From Hydrolagus colliei (Eukaryota): a stretch of 64,000 nucleotides of DNA. The notes below the pieces were generated by a model. The model had not been told where the DNA came from. It ran no database searches and worked only from the letters and a program-made list of their open reading frames with translations. The stretch covers positions 95,108,001 to 95,172,000 of the forward strand of contig CM068742.1 in NCBI GenBank assembly GCA_035084275.1, in the 5' to 3' direction. The position numbers were made by a program, and so were the translations under genes. How positions within the stretch are numbered: position 1 is the first letter of the stretch; every line of letters begins with the position of its first letter. Of this stretch, positions 10,495 through 46,800 are shown piece by piece.

Positions 10495-11900
10495 CAACAA
10501 CAACAAATTGCACTTATAGAGTGCCTTTCACGTCAGGAGGACGTCCCAAGGCGCTGCACAGGAGGCGTGTGACCCAAGCTGGGAGGGAAGTGTTCGGGAG
10601 GGGGTAAAAAACGTAGAGGAGGTTGAAGAATTAGGGGGGGAACAGAAGGCACGGTCGAAAAGGAAAGTCTTCAAACCGGCCTTGAAAGAGGAAAGGGAGG
10701 AAACAAGGCGGAGGGATTGGGGGATGGAGTTCCAAAGGGTGGGAGCGGAAAAACCGAAGACCCGGCCTCCGATGGTGGGGCGGTTTGGGCGGGGGGCTTG
10801 GAGCAAGCCAAGTCCTGCTGAACGGAGGGTTCGGGTGGGCTTATAGGGGGAGAGTAGGTCGGAAAGATAGGGCGGGGCAAGGCCGTGTAAGGCCGTAAAG
10901 GTGAGGACGAAGATCTTTAACTCGATCCTCTGGGGGATGGGGAGCCAATGGAGACGGGCGAGGGTGGGGGTTATGTGGTCGCGGAGGCGGGTGCGGGATA
11001 GTACATTGGCTGCAGAGTTTGGGATGATCTGCAGCCTGTGAATGGAGGAGAAGGGCTATTTTACAAGTTCTAGGATAAGTAGGAAATGCAAGTCTTTCTC
11101 CTTCAGAGGTAGAAATCCAGACAATATCAGGTTTGAGGAAGTCATTACCAGGCTCTGCAACTATCTCACTCCCCACGCTGCTGAAACACTCGTGCACGCG
11201 TACCTCACCTCACGGCTGGACTATGGAACTCTCTCCTTGTCCTCCATTCACAGGCTGCAGATCATCCAGCCAGCTGAGCAGAGGGAGCAGGTAGGTTGGT
11301 AGGAGGTTAGAAGGTACAAGACATGGGGGGACCAAGGCCATTGAGGGCTTTGAAAGTGAGGACTGTATCCTCTGTGTGATGGGAAGCCGGTGGAATTGGG
11401 TGAAGATGGGAGTGAAAGGGTTGTGAAGCCTAGTGTGGGAGAAGACAAGGGTTGCAGAGTCCTGGATGATCTGCAACCTATAGAGGGAGGAGTTGGGGAG
11501 GTCGGCAAGCAGGGAGTTTGCTTACTCAATCCTGGATGTTATGAATGCGTGTATGAAGGTCTCGGTGGCCTGTGGTGTGAAATAGTGGTGGAGCCAGGTG
11601 ATGTTGTGGAGATGAGGGAAGGCAGAGTGGATCATGGCATGGATGTGGGGTAGAAAGGATAATTGAGGGTCAAACAAGATGTCAAGGTGCTGACTCAGTG
11701 AGGTGAAGTATGCATCCTTGGATGGTGATGCTGTCGGTGCTTAAGGTGTAGAGGCAATCATGAGGGCCTCGGTCTTGTTTGCATTCAACTGTTGAAAGTT
11801 AGCTCTCCTCCAGGACTTGATGTCTGACAGATATTCTGTCAAGACAGCTGTGGTCCTGGAGTCTAGGGTGGAGGCAGGTTTACAAGGTATCATAGGCACA
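10495..11900 (-). mobile_element. Cluster of L2-type LINE 3' fragments (one CpG-rich copy 10495-11049, a + strand piece ~11140-11269, an older copy ~11270-11900)
   Basis: (CAA)n tail on +; translations GGRVFGFSAPTLWNSIP...FKAGLKTFLF and AAETLVHAYLTSRLDYG are typical of the L2 ORF2 C-terminus. Confidence 0.85.
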
Positions 11901-17404: not shown

Positions 17405-17760
17405 GCAACAACTACAACAAAATTACATTTATAGAGCGCCTTTCACGTCGGGAAGTCATCCCAAGGCGCTGAACAGATAGGCCGGGACCTGAGCACGGGA
17501 GCAGGCCAGAGGGGAGGGCCGGGGTGGGAGAGAATTAGGAGGGTAATGAGAGAGTTGGGAGGGCAGCAGAAGGCATGGTCGAAGAGGAGGGGACGGGGAG
17601 GTTCAAAGGAGGACAGCAGGTCGGAGAAATTGGAGGGCGGGGACAAGGCCGTGAATGGTCTTGAAGGTGATTCAATCCTCTGGGTGATGGGGAGCCAATG
17701 TTGCTGGGTGAGGATGGGAGTGATGTGGTCGCAGAAGGGATGGTCAGTGATAGTGCAGTC
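17405..17760 (-). mobile_element. L2-type LINE 3' fragment with internal deletions
   Basis: CAACAAAATTACATTTATAGAGCGCCTTTCACGTCGGG tail, similar to the 10495 copy. Confidence 0.8.
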
Positions 17761-17774
17761 CTCGATCTTTAATA

Positions 17775-18200
17775 CAGATATCCCTCCCCAACCGCGGGGG
17801 AATACGTTCCTGAAAACACCGTGGTTGGTAAAACCGTGGTTGGCAAATACAAGGCCCTATGGAAAACATGGGGTTAGGGTGAGTAAGTTGCTTGTTCTTT
17901 TACTAAACACAAAAAAAACACAATAACCTAACAAAAACAATAAATGTTCAAATAACACTATCAAAAAGAATATAAAAAACAAGAAATTCATTTTTTACCT
18001 TAATCCTAAGAGAGAAGTATCATCATGGCTGGTTGATTGCGACATCGCAACTGGGTCCTATTGCCAAAAGCTAGTGGTAGTGTTAAAATCCTTGGATATG
18101 CAAAATTCACTGCCATGGTTGGCAAAGGTTGTCGCAGAGAGGAAACCGTCGATATGTGAAATCTGTGGTTGAAAAGATCGTGGTTGGGGTGGGGTACCTG
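17775..18200. mobile_element. Tigger/pogo-like non-autonomous element (MER2-like ends)
   Basis: TA|CAGATATCCCTCCCCAACC ... GGTTGGGGTGGGGTACCTG|TA; imperfect TIRs and TA target duplication. Confidence 0.75.
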
Positions 18201-27893: not shown

Positions 27894-28220
27894 CCTCCTT
27901 ATGTCCTGACAAATGAAATGTTACTGGTCAGCAGAGGTGGAATGGGAGCCATTTCTAATCTCGTCCTGGACATTGAGGATGAGGACAACCCCACTGACGT
28001 AGTCCTTGGAGTTTTGGACCCTCCAAGACATGGTCGTCTGATCTTGCTCTCAGCGAATGTGGATGTACAGCATTTTCAATTAGAGGACCTGAAACGTGGA
28101 CAGCTCCGTTACATTCATGATGGGACAGACAACATGTACGATCGGACACTCCTGCAAATAAATGATGGGCAGAATTTCCTGAACGTTCTCTTCCAGATCA
28201 AAGTTATTCCAGATCAAAAG
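27894..28220 (+). CDS. FRAS1: FRAS1 exon, CSPG repeat (PPYVLTNE...DPPRHG...RYIHDG...KVIPDQK)
   Basis: tcacag| acceptor, AAG|gtacca donor (weak), 327 nt, phase 0-0. Confidence 0.92.
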
Positions 28221-29877: not shown

Positions 29878-30376
29878 AATAATAATAATATAATCGCGTC
29901 TTTAAGACGTCTCAAAGCGCTTCACAGAATATACTGTACCATGTAGTGGTTGTGTATTTTGCGGGTGAAACACGGCAGCCAATTGTGCACAGCAGTGTCC
30001 CTCAAACAGCAGTAGATTGAAGTGGCTAAATTATTAATTTTTTTTGAATATAGTAATAATAATCCTTGCATTTGATATAGCGCTTTTCACATCTTATCGA
30101 CGTCCCAAAGTGCCTTACAGAATATATTGTAAAGTGAATTGACTGTATATATTTGTGGGTGAATAGTGGCAGCCAATTGCACACAGCAGTGTCCCACAAA
30201 CAATGACCAATTTTATTATTGTGGGTTTTCTTTGAGGGATTATTATTAGGCATGTGGAGTAAGGAAACTTGCCCAAGGATTCGCCCTGACCTGCCTGGAT
30301 TCGAACATAGGTCTCCCCAGCTTGGTCTCCCCAGCTTGCAAGAGAAGTGCTCTAACCACTGAGCCACAGGAGCTCC
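29878..30376 (-). mobile_element. Two tandem tRNA-SINE copies (partial 29878-30030; full-length 30051-30376)
   Basis: Minus strand GGAGCTCCTGTGGCTCAGTGGTTAGAGC (A box), TGTTCGAATCC (B box), (TTA)n tail. Confidence 0.88.
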
Positions 30377-30529
30377 ATGCAAGCTTCGAAAGAGGGGAGC
30401 ATGGCGGTGGGGTGGGGAGGGTGCGTGGTAAGTTGGGTGGTAGTGAGATGGAGGAGAGTGGGAGAGCCAGATGGAGGGCACAACACCGTATTTGGTATGT
30501 GGTGGTCACACATACTATTGGGAGTGTGG

Positions 30530-30951
30530 CTATTCGCAGTATTTGGTGAAAACATTGGCTGCGTAGAAGTAGGTACTGTTCCAGTAAGAGCAAGAAACAA
30601 GGGTGGGAGTCCCTGGGAGTCCCAGAGAAAGCGGCTGGTGACTAGAGCATCTCCACTGTGATTTTCATCCACTGTCACCAGGCACAGCAGTTTATACCTG
30701 GGCAGCAGAACATCGTTCACAAACTCTTCAATTTTGTCACTCATCTCCTTCATGATTACAGACACAATCAAGCAACTATAGGAGATGCTGTAGAGATTAG
30801 TATTCTTCCGGGAACTTCTGAACATGGAGAGTCGTAATTTCTCTTTAAGGTTGAGGCAAATCCGCGGCACCTCCTCATTCACTATCTTGGTAACCACTGG
30901 TTTCTTCACTGCTATCTTCAAAGCTCTTCTTTTCTTTAAATGATTTGTCAT
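30530..30951 (-). pseudogene. Nested antisense Tctex1-domain dynein light chain gene (DYNLT4/DYNLT5-like), frameshifted
   Basis: Minus ORF contains KEMSDKIEEFVNDVLLPRYKLLCLVTVDEN...SRFLWDS. After a frameshift at a 10-bp tandem duplication (30604-30623), another frame gives TLVSCSYWNSTYFYAANVFTKYCE*, a Tctex-type C-terminus. ATG-to-stop span is 422 nt, not a multiple of 3. Confidence 0.85.
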
Positions 30952-32016
30952 TTAGCTGAAATGAATAGGATCAGAGTGGCCACAACCCAACAGCATCACT
31001 ATACATATGTGAAGACGTTACACGTTTGTGAGTGTGTGAAATATTATTGTGTCATCAGTACCCTCTTGAAGGGCATAGGCTTGAATGCCACTGAACTGCT
31101 GTTTATCATTGCACATCAAGCCTCCATAGCCACACTCTAAAAGTGGCATTAACTAGACCTCCAGTCATCCTGTTCTCTAAATGAAGAGAAAATATGTTAA
31201 GCACATGCATTCCCTAGCTCAATGTCTCAGTTAGAGAGTTGTTGTCAAAACTGAGATATTCAGAGATGTGGAGTAAAAATTATCCAAACCACTGCATTAG
31301 TTCTAGCATGGGTACCAATCTTTGCATTTCTAATTATATCCATGAACCATAAGATAGCTAGGGTTTGTAATGAATGTTTAATAGACCCTGTACCACTGTG
31401 TATTACTTCACCAATATTCTGCATCACTGGGTCACTTAATGCTTGAAGTCTTTGAATGAATATTAAAATGGCACATTGTAATCAGTGTGCCATGCTGCTT
31501 TTTGTGTAAAAAGTTTGTCTCCACAGCTTATCGCAAAAAAATCTGATTGTTTGCATTTGATATAGCAACTAATCATATAGTTCAAGTGTTTAACGCAATT
31601 TATTGTCAAGTTTAGGGACTGTATTTTGTAGGCAAAAACAGAAGCCAGTTTCACATTGCAATGCCCCACAAACAGACATGAAGTCAATGACTGATTTTAT
31701 CTGGGGGAATTGTTGACCAGAATACTAGGAGAATTCCTTTAATTTTTAAATAGGGCCACAGAATCCTTAACATCTACCTCAATGGGCAGACAGGACCTGG
31801 TTTTGAGAACATATCATCTGAAGGAGGCACCACTGACATACTCTGTATTGAAGTATCAGCCTTGTGAGCTCACAAAGTCCAAATCAACTGAGCTGACTTG
31901 ACCGTCTGTTAATTGCTAAGCAGAGCAACATTTCAGGGCCACAGATTAAATTCAACATAGTGACAGAACTGCCAGTTACTAAGTGTGGCATTTGTCTGGC
32001 ATGTTCTTTGTATATA

Positions 32017-36859: not shown

Positions 36860-37320
36860 ACTCCCTCCTTGTCGACCTCACCAACTCTTCCCTCCAAGCT
36901 GCAGATCATCCAGAACTCTGCAGCTCGTGTCCTCTCCTGCACCAGGCTCTGTGACCCCATCAACCCCACCCTCGTCCAGCTCCATTGACTCAGAGGATAG
37001 AATTCAAGATCCTCGTCCTCACTTTTAAGGCCCTCCACGGCCTTGCCCCCTCCTACCTCTCTGACCTGCTGACTCCCTATCAACCTGTCCGCTTGACTCC
37101 GTTCAGTAGGCTCCAGCCTGCTCCATGTCTCCCATCTGACCCACCCTACCATCGGTGGCCGAGCTTTCATCCCCTCTTGCCCACTCTTTGGAACTCCATC
37201 CCACAGTTCCTTCACCTTGCTCTCTTCCTTGTGTCCTTCAAGACTGGCCTCAAGACCCTCCTTTTCAATAAAGCATTCAGCCACCCTCCTACCTCTGTGC
37301 ATGCCATCTTCCCAATCCTG
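36860..37320 (+). mobile_element. L2-type LINE ORF2 C-terminal fragment
   Basis: QRIEFKILVLTFKALHGLAPSYLSDLL...LWNSIP...FKTGLKTLLF. Confidence 0.85.
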
Positions 37321-37767
37321 CCAGATAGAGAAGGGGCATGAGCCAGATGCATCAAGGTAAGATTTTAGGAGCTTAGAATTGGAAAGCAACTGCTGTGTGC
37401 AGCAAAGATCAGATGCAACATACGCCTCTGCTGCTGATACTGAAGATCTTTGACTTTGTCCTTCAGTCGCTGTTTGAACTAAATTATTTTATTCATCACT
37501 ACTGTGTTCCTGAAAGCTTGTGAATAACCCAGACATTTCTTATTTTGCAGTCTTCACTCTGATCTCTGAATTTGAATTTCAGGGTCCCTTACTGTTCCAG
37601 CCACAGACCTTGATCTTCCGAACATGCCCCCAAATCCCCAAAAAGAAAGATTAATTTTTCCATTCAGAAATTGAAGTTCAGTCACGGCAGACAGCATTTC
37701 TTTTATTATTCTTCTTAATATTTTTGATTGTAACAAACTTTTGGACTGCAAGAAAAGGATGTGTACA

Positions 37768-38481: not shown

Positions 38482-38644
38482 CAGAGAGATAAAGGGCCTC
38501 ATCTAGTGACTAACTTACCAGGATGGGTACCTGAGAGGGGATTACTGCAGATCAACGACAAACTGTTGAGGGCAGTGGACAAAGATGCCAGTGATTCAGA
38601 GATCATCTTCACCCTAACACGTGCAAAAGGAAATCCTAGATTTG
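38482..38644 (+). CDS. FRAS1: FRAS1 exon (QRDKGPHLVTNLPGWVPERGLLQI...NPRF)
   Basis: CAGCAG tandem acceptor (alternative start 38485), G|gtaggt donor, phase 0-1; absent from the ORF track. Confidence 0.92.
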
Positions 38645-39400
38645 GTAGGTAATTAACCATCAATGTTAATAATCATCCTTGTATTTGATAAAGTGCCTTA
38701 TCACATCGCAAGATGTCTCAAAGCACTTCACTGGATATTCTGTAAAGTGTTTTGACTGTGTATTTTGTGGGAGAAACACATCCAGTTACTCAGAGTAATG
38801 TACCACAAACAACCCTGGAACCATGGTGTGAGTGATTCCATTCTATTTCGGAGATTGTTCAATGCAGCCGATAAGCATAGGAGTAATGGAGGATAGGAGA
38901 GCAGGTTTACTAGCTAGGAGGTAATTAATACAATTATTGCAATGAAATCTAAGTGGTTTTGATAGGAAACTCAATGGGACTTGGGTGAATGTGTGACTTA
39001 GGTGATTATAGAGTTATAAAGAGATTTATGCAAGTTTTACTGTATTACCAAAAACGCAAAGGGAAAAGTTAGGAAAATACATATTTCAAACAGTAAATTG
39101 TTGAGATGTGTACTGCCCAAACTAGAACTGTGCTTAAGGCAGAATCCATTCAGCTTTTAAGTGGGAATCAGATCAATATATAAAATATAAATTATAAAGG
39201 CAAGAGAAAGGGATAAAGTTCTTTTATAGAACCAGCACTGATAGGATGGACCGAATGGTCTCCTTCTGTGTCTCTATTTTGGCAATTAATGTTGAAGTTG
39301 AATATCTAACTCAACTTTAATCTGATGTTGTTTATCTCCAGGAGAACTGATTGAACAACTGGTAGTATTGAGATTCACCACTAACCCTTGCTGTCAACAG

Positions 39401-39579: not shown

Positions 39580-40989
39580 GTACAATACTGCCCAGTACTG
39601 CAGTTAAATAGATCCCCTTGTCCCTAAAAAGCAGGGTTAGGGTTAGCACCAAAACAATTACACTTATTACACTATTCAAAATTTACAGCCCACTTTGAGC
39701 CAGTAGAAGCACAACATTTGGAAAGGTATTTTAAATATTTTCTGGAATCCACTGTCAAAACAACAATTAAATCAAAATGAATATGTTTGTTATTGATTCT
39801 CCCACAAGTAATCTACCTCCCTGCTGGAAGCAATTATCGTACAATTTACATTTATATATGCTTTCACGTCAGGATGAGCTCTCAAAATACTTCACAGTGC
39901 TGATGGATACCCAATCAGGGGATTGGTAGGCAAGAGGAGATGGAGAGGGAAAAACATTAACTTTTAAGTGACTCATTTTCTTTTCTTCACAAATCTTTCT
40001 CTATCTAACAAGCACCACGGGAAGTATTCCCAACATGCAAGTCATTGTATAAATGTAAATTTGTATTGTAGCATCTATTTTATTTTACCCTGAATGTGTT
40101 TGACTTATTTTACATTTTCCTGAGGTACGGTTTTGAGGGCACCAGGCACTTCCTGGTGTCTTGCCCAAGTGACTGTATAGGGCATGAGCCTTGATAATTT
40201 GTTTGACCACAAAGAGTATTATAATCAAGAACAAGACTGTCCTCACTCACCAATCAGATGTGTAGCTTTCAGCAGGGGTGGAGGGGTCTCCGGGTGACAG
40301 TCAGATGCAGGAACCCTGGTTTAAATCCCTCCCCCGCTAGTCAAAGCATCCCCCATCACTGTCATTAGTTCCACAGCACATCCTGAGCATTGAGCCTGAG
40401 ACAGTTAACAACCTAAGTGACTAATTGAATAATCTCACCTGAGCCATTGGGAACTCCACTTGAAAAGCACTGTAAAAAGATGAATGGGAAGCTCAGTAAC
40501 TGGAGGAAACGGTGAAGACTCTGTGATTAACTATTTATTTAACAATGTGTTTGCTTTGTACTAAAGATGAAACACAAGTATAGCTGTTGCAGCCACCAAA
40601 TCTTTGCCATGTGCAAAAACTCCATGAAATGTTTATTGTTTTACAGAAAGGTCCCTGTGGAGCAGTCTGCTAAGAAACAAACCTTCCTCTGCCTTACCTA
40701 TCTTTGCAACCGAGACTTGGATATGGATAACCTATTTAATTCCAGTAAAATTAATCAACCTCACCTTTTTAGGCTGTACCAGTACTGAGGATGAGTCAGT
40801 ACTGGTTTCAGGACCTTGGAGAAATAGCAATGTGCAGCTGTCTAAAGTTCCTTGATTTACATTTATATGAAGCATCTTATTGGGGCTTTTAGGCTAATTT
40901 CTTAAAGATATCTATAACCTTATCATTTTGGTTGCAAATCCACATTCACATTGAGTTTTACTTCACAACAACATTGCAAGCCCTGTTCT

Positions 40990-41595
40990 CTGATGTAAGG
41001 ACCACTTGGACCACTATGGAAACTCCTTCCTCGTTGGCCTTCCCGGCTCTTTGCTTCACACGCTGCAGATCATCCAGAACTCTGCAGGTCATGTCGTCTC
41101 CCACATTAAGCTCCGTGACCACATCACTCCCACCCTTTCCCAGCTCCATTGGCTATCCATTCCCAAGGATCAAATTCAAGATCCTCGTCCTCATTTTCAA
41201 GGCCATTCACGGCCTTGCCCCTTCCGAACTCTCTGACTTGTTGACTCCCTATCAACCTGCCTGCCCACTCCATTCAGCGGGCTCCTGTCTGTTCCATGTC
41301 TCCCACCTGACCCGCCCTACCATCGGTGGCCGGGCGTTCAGCCCCTCTGCCCTCACACTCTTGAACTCCATCCCACAGTCACTTCACCTCACTTCCTCCC
41401 TTGACTCCTTCAAGGTCGGTCCCAAGACCCTCCTTTTCAATTGTGCCTTCTACCGCCCCTCCACCTGTCTCCCTCCCCTACCCCCCACCATGCCCCTTCC
41501 CCGTGCTCGAGTCCCGACCCCTGATTGTTCAGCACCTTGGGATGTCTTCCCGACATGAAATGTGCTCTATAAATGTAATTTTGTTTGTTGTTGTT
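40990..41595 (+). mobile_element. L2-type LINE 3' fragment with tail
   Basis: DHYGNSFLVGLP...LQIIQNSA...HITPTLSQLHWL; FKILVLIFKAIHGLAP; (TTG)n tail. Confidence 0.88.
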
Positions 41596-44325: not shown

Positions 44326-45157
44326 TAGGGAACGGCGATGTATCGGTTTTTCGATTAAACCCGATATGATTTTCAGATCGGTATGCCGATATGGTGATTC
44401 TAAAAAAACCATTATATCGAGAGATTCGATTTTAAAAATATACATCGTTATATTTTTTAAATCGTTCCTGGCAATATATCAATATTGTTGGTATTATCAG
44501 TGTTATGCAATCTTTTCCAGCTTACGTTGTCGCCGGCATTGCAACCTCCTAGACCTAGAGCATGGAATGCGCGTACATTCGGTGCGCGCGCACAATTAAC
44601 GGGCGCGCACATCCGATGCGCGCGCACACTTTACTGTGTATACTCGACGTGAGTCGTGGCGTCTTAACAAAGTCGCATCGCTGAAAATTGTAGTTTGAAA
44701 ATTTACCTTTCTCATCATGGGGAAAAGAAGCCCCGTATGGGACTACTTTGAAAACAATGCAGTCAGTAATGGTGTGTATAGATGTACAGTTTGCAAGGTC
44801 TTGGTTAAGACATCTGATTCGAGCACGAGCAACCTGCGACATCACATTAAGCAGCACCACCCCGCCCAGCACGCTGCCCTCAGAGCGAAATCATTGTCGA
44901 CAACAGCAGGAAGTCGAACCAGCGCTTCGGAGAAAGCGACAGGTAGTGGGGCCAGTGCAGCTCAAACAATTCCTGCTTTATTTAAGAGGAGAACATTGTA
45001 CCAGAGAGGGGACAAAAAGTGGCAAAGTATCACGAACGCTGTCACTTTTTGCATAGCAAAGGAGAGCTTGCCAATGGCGATTGTTGAGACGCTTGGGTTT
45101 AAGCAACTCCTAAACGAACTGGACCCCAGGTACAAACCACAATGCGAAGGACATTAA
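44326..45157 (+). mobile_element. hAT (Ac/ZBED1-like) transposon 5' half with truncated BED-finger transposase ORF (44717-45157)
   Basis: 5' TIR TAGGGAACGGCGAT. Subterminal block shared with the MITE at 35580. ORF SPVWDYF...CTVC...STSNLRHHIKQHH (BED) then ITNAVTFCIAKESLPMAIVETLGFKQLLNELDPRYKP. No 3' TIR visible. Confidence 0.9.
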
Positions 45158-46140: not shown

Positions 46141-46255
46141 GCACTTGAAGATCGAGTTACTGTGATCCAGGCTACCCAGCTGTCATTTCTAGATAGACAT
46201 ACTCCCAGCCAAGATCTGATCTACAATGTCACTGTGCCACTGGCCCCAGAACATG
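46141..46255 (+). CDS. FRAS1: FRAS1 exon (ALEDRVTVIQATQLSFLD...LIYNVTVPLAPEH) with GC donor
   Basis: tactag| acceptor; G|gcaagt non-canonical donor is required for a phase-1 join to the next exon; 115 nt. Confidence 0.9.
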
Positions 46256-46317
46256 GCAAGTATTGATATAAGATTGTTAGCTCCTTTTATACGTATGTAT
46301 TGCATTGGAATGAAAAA

Positions 46318-46575
46318 GAAGATCTGATTACCTGCCCCATCCCCATATCCCCTTTTTTTTTTAGAAAATCTATCATTCTCAGCCTTGAAAATGTTCAGGG
46401 ACTGAGCATCCACAGCCTTCTGGGGTAGTGAATTCCATAAATTCACTACCCTCTGAATGAAGAAATATTTCCTCAACTCCGTTCTAAAAGGCTGACCCTT
46501 AATTTTAAGACTGTGACCCCTTATTTTTGATTCTCCTACCAGGGGAAAGAGTCCCTCAGTGTCTACTTTATCCAT
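46318..46575 (-). mobile_element. CR1-type LINE ORF2 C-terminal fragment
   Basis: LFPLVGESKIRGHSLKIKGQPFRTELRKYFFIQRVVNLWNSLP. Confidence 0.88.
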
Positions 46576-46800
46576 AATTTATTATCTATAATAAATAAAT
46601 AATTGTACGTTTGATATAGTGCCTTACCTCATCGTTAAAACAGGGTTTTACTGTGAAGTTTAGTGACTGTGCATTTGTGGGCGAAAACTGACAATAAGAA
46701 TAAACAGTATTACATTTAAGAGTGTCAATGCTCACAGGTATCTCAAATATAATTTTTCTGAGTTTATAGATAGGGTTTAGGTATCAGTTTGATAAGATGT

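What the first reader, a model, noticed from the sequence alone, without database searches (positions are those of the whole stretch)
30530..30957. Hidden antisense Tctex1-type dynein light chain (pseudo)gene nested in a FRAS1 intron
Seen: the 199-aa minus ORF carries the Tctex-1 core (KEMSDKI..V...PRYKLLCLVTV.EN....SRFLWD). It slips frame at a GGGACTCCCA x2 duplication, and the shifted frame ends SCSYWNSTYFYAANVFTKYCE*. A second short shifted stretch (HVQKFPEEY) fits the family's first helix better than the main frame, suggesting further compensating indels. Known: this signature resembles DYNLT4/TCTEX1D4 (PRYKLVC...SRALWD...YCE) and DYNLT5, which are ciliary/flagellar dynein light chains. 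I know of no such gene in mammalian FRAS1 introns. Inference: a lineage-restricted nested paralog that is decaying here and may be intact in related chondrichthyans or other fishes.
Basis: partly seen in the sequence, partly recalled or inferred. Interest (0 to 1): 0.8.

Follow-up and report, generated by a model that had tools for sequence, protein, structure and literature searches.

The report
Old broken retrocopy inside chimaera FRAS1
This is a broken, intron-less copy of a dynein light-chain gene that sits intact elsewhere in the same genome; it was likely pasted from an mRNA into a FRAS1 intron long ago, is broken in every relative that could be read, and is an ordinary pseudogene rather than a hidden working gene.

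Summary
Window 30530-30952 (-) is a Tctex-1 family sequence (PF03645 over cut-off), antisense in a 10.3-kb intron of a FRAS1-like gene. The interpretation changes. The genome holds an intact four-exon parent on contig C41, 212 aa and 91% identical to Callorhinchus milii XP_007905296.1. The copy covers parent CDS nt 210-638 and crosses two exon junctions exactly, lacking the 84- and 464-nt introns: a 5'-truncated processed pseudogene. Its lesions are -1 (~30833), -8 (~30799) and net +2 at the 10-nt duplication. An independent sample shows them letter for letter, and all 5 runs that bridge the -8 site carry it, related lineages included. No lineage has a whole ORF. The copy has 32 own amino-acid changes against 4 in the parent, with no sparing of conserved columns (6 of 25 vs 28 of 115). 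Against this: 7 of 10 substitutions among relatives are synonymous (P about 0.003-0.015, post hoc). Cartilaginous fishes carry thousands of retrocopies. Ordinary; low interest.

The parts
30530..30952 (-). Processed pseudogene (retrocopy) of the C41 Tctex1-domain gene; covers parent CDS nt 210-639 (codons ~71-212), 5'-truncated
   Evidence: 345 of 420 aligned nt identical (17/19 exon 2 part, 58/63 exon 3, 270/338 exon 4)
30934..30952 (-). 3' end of parent exon 2; includes the ATG at 30951, which corresponds to an internal codon (Met71 in C. milii, Ile in the parent), not to the parent's start
30871..30933 (-). Whole parent exon 3 (63 nt), joined exactly to exon 2 at 30934|30933 (84-nt intron absent) and to exon 4 at 30871|30870 (464-nt intron absent)
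   Evidence: the parent's own exon-3 contigs run on into intron sequence at both ends when laid here (loose ends at 30869 and 30940)
30530..30870 (-). Parent exon 4 (the Tctex-1 domain) to the stop codon TAG 30532-30530
30832..30834 (-). 1-nt deletion, found only in organism A (present in X4; absent in X7, X8, X9, X10, X11)
30797..30800 (-). 8-nt deletion, the oldest shared frameshift; puts a TAA right after ...EEY in the parent frame
   Evidence: no gap listed in 5 of 5 bridging runs (X4, X7, X8, X9, X10)
30604..30623 (-). Perfect 10-nt tandem duplication, net +2 against the parent; shifts the C-terminus out of frame (one extra G, net +3, in X6 and X10)
30050..30377 (-). High-copy interspersed repeat (likely SINE, inferred) 152 nt past the stop; the 199-aa ORF ends inside it
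   Evidence: many 70-80% matches in 70 kb of C41
27894..28220 (+). FRAS1-like exon upstream of the host intron (CSPG/Cadherin_3 repeat)
38482..38650 (+). Next FRAS1-like exon (start from the acceptor and frame, end approximate); host intron 28221-~38481

Best explanation
It is a broken, intron-less, 5'-truncated copy of an intact four-exon Tctex1-domain dynein light-chain gene on contig C41 of the same genome, likely made by reverse transcription of that gene's mRNA and inserted antisense into a FRAS1 intron, where it has likely decayed neutrally. Shown: parent identity, two exact exon junctions, loss of the first 70 codons and of the parent's start codon, three frameshifts, presence at the same intron position in relatives. 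Inferred: germ-line mRNA capture by a LINE reverse transcriptase (element unknown; L2 or CR1 are candidates); an insertion date near or soon after the split from the Callorhinchus line (the copy keeps the C. milii residue at all 4 sites where only the parent differs, and the parent residue at all 3 where only C. milii differs); and no present function.
For: The own-genome DNA search finds only the locus itself and two separate C41 pieces (93% and 77%). Parent exons have GT-AG introns and a 639-nt open CDS, 91% identical to C. milii XP_007905296.1 and V9LBK4. Junctions are exact at 30934|30933 and 30871|30870. Tree: copy + parent + C. milii at 99% SH-aLRT, branch 0.38 vs 0.022 and 0.022. In 132 codons there are 32 copy-specific, 4 parent-specific and 3 C. 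milii-specific amino-acid changes. 6 of 25 family-conserved columns are substituted vs 28 of 115 overall, among them G168D (97 of 100 homologs have G, none D); two further conserved columns fall in the indels. 18 of 21 parent CpGs are lost and GC3 drops from 0.70 to 0.56. Organism A vs B substitution density is 9/422 inside vs 11/532 in the flank, P=1. Three lineage-specific 1-nt indels lie within 430 nt. ORFs from the ATG are 199 aa with a wrong C-terminus (A), 22 aa (B) and 51 aa (third lineage). A neutral simulation fits the amino-acid count once 12-20 substitutions are put on the parent branch (P 0.11-0.45).
Against: No poly(A) tail or target-site duplication was found (longest shared word 7 nt), and no homology to the parent's 3' flank (P=0.31 vs shuffles), so the LINE step rests on the lost introns alone. 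Pairwise dN/dS is 0.37 (bootstrap 0.21-0.63), and no point-mutation stop lies in the parent frame (neutral P 0.08-0.32). If the parent branch had no substitutions, neutrality would be rejected (P<=0.02), so an early functional phase is not excluded. Among relatives 7 of 10 substitutions are synonymous (expected 24-32%; P 0.003-0.015). Each of the three young indels offsets an older frameshift. Expression could not be tested.
Confidence: 0.9

Rival explanations
1. It began as a functional retrogene (expressed from an acquired antisense promoter or splice acceptor, perhaps in testis) and was inactivated by the 8-nt deletion before the sampled chimaera lineages split.
For: dN/dS 0.37, no point stops, PRYKL, SR.LWD and terminal YCE motifs retained. 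An AG after a pyrimidine run sits just 5' of the breakpoint (30957) and the ATG at 30951 is in the parent frame.
Against: Conserved columns are hit at the background rate (6 of 25 vs 28 of 115). Neutral simulation reproduces the counts with a modest parent branch. The first 70 codons are missing.
Confidence: 0.07
2. One reading: a lineage-restricted nested paralog that decayed recently here and is intact in related fishes.
For: The locus is conserved in position in related organisms. In one lineage the C-terminal frameshift is offset, leaving a 74-aa in-frame core from an internal ATG.
Against: The 8-nt deletion is in 5 of 5 bridging runs. No lineage has a whole ORF. The copy derives from a known-type parent by intron loss. 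The 74-aa version lacks the first part of the domain and carries G168D.
Confidence: 0.02
3. The frameshifts are assembly errors in an intact gene.
For: None found.
Against: Run X4 (another sample and study of the same organism) has one contig over 30380-31054 with 0 other letters and 0 gaps. Relatives share the -8, and organism B also the +2.
Confidence: 0.005

Closest known systems
Vertebrate processed pseudogenes (retrocopies); 14,081 counted in cartilaginous fishes, 15.7% with an intact ORF (bioRxiv 10.64898/2026.06.26.734816, abstract and passages read)
   Same: Intron-less, 5'-truncated, on another chromosome from its parent, frameshifted, CpG-depleted, about 420 nt long.
   Different: No poly(A) tail or target-site duplication can still be seen. 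It is shared across several related organisms, whereas that paper.7% of cartilaginous-fish retrocopies species-specific (among its sampled genomes).
Callorhinchus milii XP_007905296.1 / V9LBK4 ('Tctex1 domain-containing protein 1-like', also labelled '2B' or '2-like'), ortholog of the C41 parent
   Same: 212 aa, 91% identical to the parent, colinear without gaps; same 99% clade as the copy.
   Different: It is an intact protein; the copy lacks residues 1-70 and has three frameshifts.
   Same: PF03645 domain with PRYKL...SR.LWD...Y.E motifs. Both are described as poorly characterised Tctex-type light chains (PMC8754002, passages).
   Different: Proteins labelled DYNLT4 (P0050, trout) and DYNLT5 (P0051 mouse-like rodent, P0075 axolotl) fall outside the 22-row clade holding the parent (89% SH-aLRT; quick tree on 125 columns). 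The parent lies beside DOCK6, SMARCA4 and an S1P-receptor gene.

Membership tests
Processed pseudogene (retrocopy) | Identifiable intron-containing parent elsewhere in the genome | tested here: met
   C41 four-exon gene, sole other hit by DNA and by protein
Processed pseudogene (retrocopy) | Precise loss of parental introns | tested here: met
   2 of 2 junctions inside the copied span are exact; 84- and 464-nt introns absent
Processed pseudogene (retrocopy) | Lacks the parental promoter and 5' end | tested here: met
   Alignment starts at CDS nt 210; upstream 348 nt shows no match to parent exon 1-2 (P=0.51)
Processed pseudogene (retrocopy) | Disabling lesions | tested here: met
   -1, -8, +2 in A; -8 shared by all bridging runs
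Processed pseudogene (retrocopy) | Neutral sequence evolution | tested here: inconclusive
   For: conserved columns not spared, density equal to flank. Against: 7 of 10 recent changes synonymous, pairwise dN/dS 0.37
Processed pseudogene (retrocopy) | Poly(A) tail and target-site duplication | tested here: not met
   None found. These marks are often eroded in old copies (general knowledge), and repeats have inserted 152 nt downstream; they are supporting, not required, marks.
Processed pseudogene (retrocopy) | Not expressed or not translated | not testable with these tools
   No RNA holder listed
Tctex-1 family (PF03645) | HMM score over the curated cut-off | tested here: met
   27.1-30.2 bits vs 22.8 for the uncorrected frames; parent exon 4 scores 83.3
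Tctex-1 family (PF03645), as a functional light chain | Complete domain in one reading frame | tested here: not met
   Only profile positions 13-73 of 95 are in frame in A; relatives give 22 or 51 aa from the same ATG
DYNLT4 or DYNLT5 ortholog group | Groups with named DYNLT4 or DYNLT5 proteins in a tree | tested here: not met
   Separate clade in a quick IQ-TREE run on 102 rows (P0001-P0100 of 150 hits, parent exon 4, copy core); human sequences not included, deep forks mostly unresolved

The most novel reading that the evidence does not exclude
The copy is a retro-exon under residual selection: a minus-strand transcript inside FRAS1 splices into the acceptor-like site at 30776|30775, which has a branch-point-like word 21 nt upstream created by the 8-nt deletion. 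In the third lineage this would give a shortened Tctex-1 core with an intact C-terminus that could bind dynein partners or act on the parent or FRAS1 RNA. This would explain the synonymous excess and the frame-offsetting indels.
Probability: 0.03. Interest if true: 0.5.

Novelty: new member of a known kind. Interest (0 to 1): 0.14.

Why it matters
Little as it stands: it is one of the many retrocopies expected in a cartilaginous-fish genome. Its uses are practical. It should not be annotated as a nested gene. Its shared and lineage-specific indels are a clean presence/absence and neutral-rate marker for chimaera phylogeny. It also shows that the parent was likely expressed in the germ line. 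The by-product is slightly more interesting: the parent appears to belong to a widespread vertebrate Tctex1-like clade (chimaera, shark, sturgeon, bowfin, teleosts, amphibians, alligator, platypus, jerboa) that databases label inconsistently and that the six-gene human DYNLT nomenclature does not seem to cover.

Tried and rejected
The search for homologous proteins with the copy and with parent exon 4 found nothing; the length window excluded the 212-aa ortholog, which the profile-library search then found. The PF03645 own-genome scan listed 9 matches of 19 candidates and missed the window copy itself; the other Tctex loci (L002-L009) are DYNLT1/3-like or DYNLT2-like by eye and did not appear in the copy's DNA or protein search. 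PDB search with the 199-aa ORF gave only weak hits (best E 0.037). No RNA holder listed; this says nothing on expression. 8 of 13 listed runs were laid; X1, X2, X3, X5 (same sample as the possible source) and X13 (small share) were not. X12 and X6 do not cover the -8 site, and X11 has only about 11 letters on one side, so these were not counted. Poly(A), target-site duplication and 3' UTR homology searches were negative. Two intron-vs-copy alignments beat shuffles (P 0.005 and 0.035) but are gapped, low-identity, and in one case involve an L2-like fragment in intron 1; I rejected them as evidence of retained introns. The idea of an L2-mRNA chimera was rejected: an L2 3' profile from 6 local copies hits the parent's flank (E 6e-21) but not the copy's 152-nt flank. 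The L1 ORF1 family PF02994 gave no match in the own genome, and nothing rang in the controls either, so this is uninformative. In one search one 10-codon block was read in the wrong frame; one search corrects it and is the one cited. Earlier-findings look-ups returned nothing. No structure or complex prediction was run: it would not change the reading of a frameshifted copy.

Full report
1. The observation. The 199-aa minus-strand ORF at 30352-30951 and the shifted frame at 30530-30664 are present as described. Without any frame correction the ORF scores 27.1 bits on PF03645 Tctex-1 (cut-off 22.8), and the core 30610-30831 scores 30.2 bits. The 10-nt tandem repeat is at 30604-30623. tblastn with vertebrate proteins, whose named members are FRAS1 or FRAS1-like, maps about 20 colinear + strand exons across the window. 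The finding lies between exons 27894-28220 and ~38482-38650, in a 10.3-kb intron. So the family call and the nesting are confirmed.

2. What it is. A protein search and a DNA search of the own genome each return only the locus itself and one other place, on the 2.57-Mb contig C41. The DNA match comes in two pieces, 93% and 77% identical, about 460 nt apart on C41 but adjacent in the window. The C41 gene has four exons (2379566-2379679, 2379987-2380100, 2380185-2380247, 2380712-2381059) with GT-AG introns and an open 639-nt CDS. That structure was set with the help of the C. milii protein; no RNA confirmed it. The 212-aa product is 91% identical, without gaps, to Callorhinchus milii XP_007905296.1 and V9LBK4. 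This also places the genome, by inference, among chimaeras other than C. milii. The window copy aligns to CDS nt 210-638 and crosses both junctions in its span exactly (30934|30933 and 30871|30870); the 84- and 464-nt introns are absent. The first 70 codons are missing, and the upstream 348 nt show no similarity to the parent's 5' exons. The ATG at 30951 corresponds to internal Met71 of the C. milii protein. This is the anatomy of a 5'-truncated processed pseudogene.

3. Lesions and relatives. Against the parent the copy has a 1-nt deletion (~30833), an 8-nt deletion (~30799) and a net +2 at the duplication. Thirteen DNA runs hold the stretch and none is on record as RNA; 8 were laid. X4, another sample and study of the same organism, covers 30380-31054 in one contig with no difference, so the lesions are not assembly errors. 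Organism B (X8) and a third haplotype group (X6, X7, X9, X10, X11; treating these as one lineage is my inference, and four of the five have depth under 5 but agree with each other) carry the copy with its flank at about 2% divergence. All 5 runs that bridge the 8-nt deletion share it. The -1 at 30833 is private to A, B has its own -1 at 30899, and X6 and X10 have one more G at 30604. From the 30951 ATG the frames give 199 aa with a wrong C-terminus (A), 22 aa (B) and 51 aa (third group); in the third group an internal ATG gives a 74-aa partial core. No lineage read here is intact.

4. Selection. In 132 codons the copy has 32 own amino-acid changes, the parent 4 and C. milii 3. In the tree its branch is 0.38 against 0.022 for each of the other two. 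Family-conserved columns are not spared: 6 of 25 are substituted vs 28 of 115 overall, including a glycine kept in 97 of 100 homologs. 18 of 21 parent CpGs are gone and GC3 fell from 0.70 to 0.56. A-vs-B substitution density is the same inside the copy and in the flank (9/422 vs 11/532). Results against neutrality are as follows. Pairwise dN/dS is 0.37 (0.21-0.63), dS 0.40. This mixes in the constrained parent branch, and simulation reproduces the amino-acid count with 12-20 parent-branch substitutions (P 0.11-0.45) but not with none (P<=0.02). There is no point stop in the parent frame (P 0.08-0.32). Among relatives 7 of 10 substitutions are synonymous where 24-32% are expected (P 0.003-0.015). 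That excess is mostly a high synonymous density (6/85 vs flank, P=0.02) rather than a low nonsynonymous one (3/311, P=0.28). Each of the three young indels happens to offset an older frameshift. These are small, post hoc counts, and I leave them unexplained.

5. Mechanism. Most likely a LINE reverse transcriptase copied the spliced parent mRNA in the germ line and stopped inside exon 2 (inferred). No poly(A) tail, target-site duplication or 3' UTR homology could be found; a high-copy repeat begins 152 nt past the stop. The enzyme is unknown. The parent has a sense L2-like 3' end about 115-245 nt past its stop, and holocephalan SINEs are reported to use L2 enzymes through a shared 3' tail (PMC5499810, abstract only). 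The copy's flank does not show that tail, so L2 capture is only a guess. The copy keeps the C. milii residue at all 4 sites where only the parent differs and the parent residue at all 3 where only C. milii differs. This points to an insertion near or soon after the split from the Callorhinchus line, long before the sampled relatives diverged (inferred).

6. Comparison with what is known. A VGP-wide survey counts 14,081 retrocopies in cartilaginous fishes, with the lowest intact-ORF fraction of any group, 15.7%, and credits CR1 or Tx1 elements outside mammals (bioRxiv 10.64898/2026.06.26.734816; abstract and passages read). Its supplements were not seen and may list this copy. A coelacanth study likewise reports retrocopies overlapping annotated genes (PMC4641402, passages). 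The human Tctex family has six genes, with DYNLT4 and DYNLT5 poorly characterised (PMC8754002, passages). In a quick tree of 102 rows (the best 100 of 150 listed hits, the parent exon 4 and the copy core; 125 columns, half the forks unresolved) the parent sits in a 22-row clade (89%) apart from proteins labelled DYNLT4 and DYNLT5. Five literature searches (listings only, apart from the papers named) showed no paper on this copy or on a gene nested in FRAS1 introns; the library is partial.

7. Verdict. New member of a known kind; interest 0.14. The most novel reading left open is a selected antisense retro-exon (probability 0.03).

Noticed in passing
G000:C41:2379566-2381059 (L001, L012, L013): The intact parent falls in a vertebrate Tctex1-like clade (chimaera, Heterodontus, sturgeon, bowfin, eel, shad, caecilian, toads, alligator, jerboa; platypus just outside) separate from DYNLT4- and DYNLT5-labelled proteins and named inconsistently in databases; possibly a further vertebrate DYNLT lineage, perhaps two, outside the human six.
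   Followed up: partly
G000:C41:2341001-2411000 (L012, L015, L016, L017): The parent lies head to head with a DOCK6-like gene, with SMARCA4-like and S1P-receptor-like genes nearby. From recall these are human 19p13.2 genes and their paralogs lie near DYNLT5 on 1p, so the parent may be a genome-duplication paralog of DYNLT5; not tested.
   Followed up: partly
window 30776-30802 (-): The 8-nt deletion creates a branch-point-like word (TACTAAT in A; TACTAAC in relatives) 21 nt before an AG at 30777-30776, an acceptor-like arrangement; a second AG after a pyrimidine run lies at the 5' breakpoint (~30957). Could be chance.
   Followed up: partly
L002 = G000:C3:108099652-108099834 (+): A DYNLT1/3-like Tctex-1 match covering profile 34-95 without an intron and with an internal TGA: probably a second Tctex retrocopy in this genome.
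   Followed up: no
window 44699-45157 (+): BED zinc-finger ORF fragment (PF02892, E 4e-8), likely a remnant of a hAT-type DNA transposon in a FRAS1 intron.
   Followed up: no
window 10528-11055 (-), 17443-17856 (-), 36955-37341 (+), 40893-41558 (+), 46189-46578 (-): Several LINE 3' fragments (L2-like and one CR1-like by recalled motifs; no Pfam hit for the three tested) in FRAS1 introns.
   Followed up: no
G000:C41:2381175-2381303 (+): A sense L2-like 3' end lies about 115-245 nt past the parent's stop codon and may be in its 3' UTR.
   Followed up: partly
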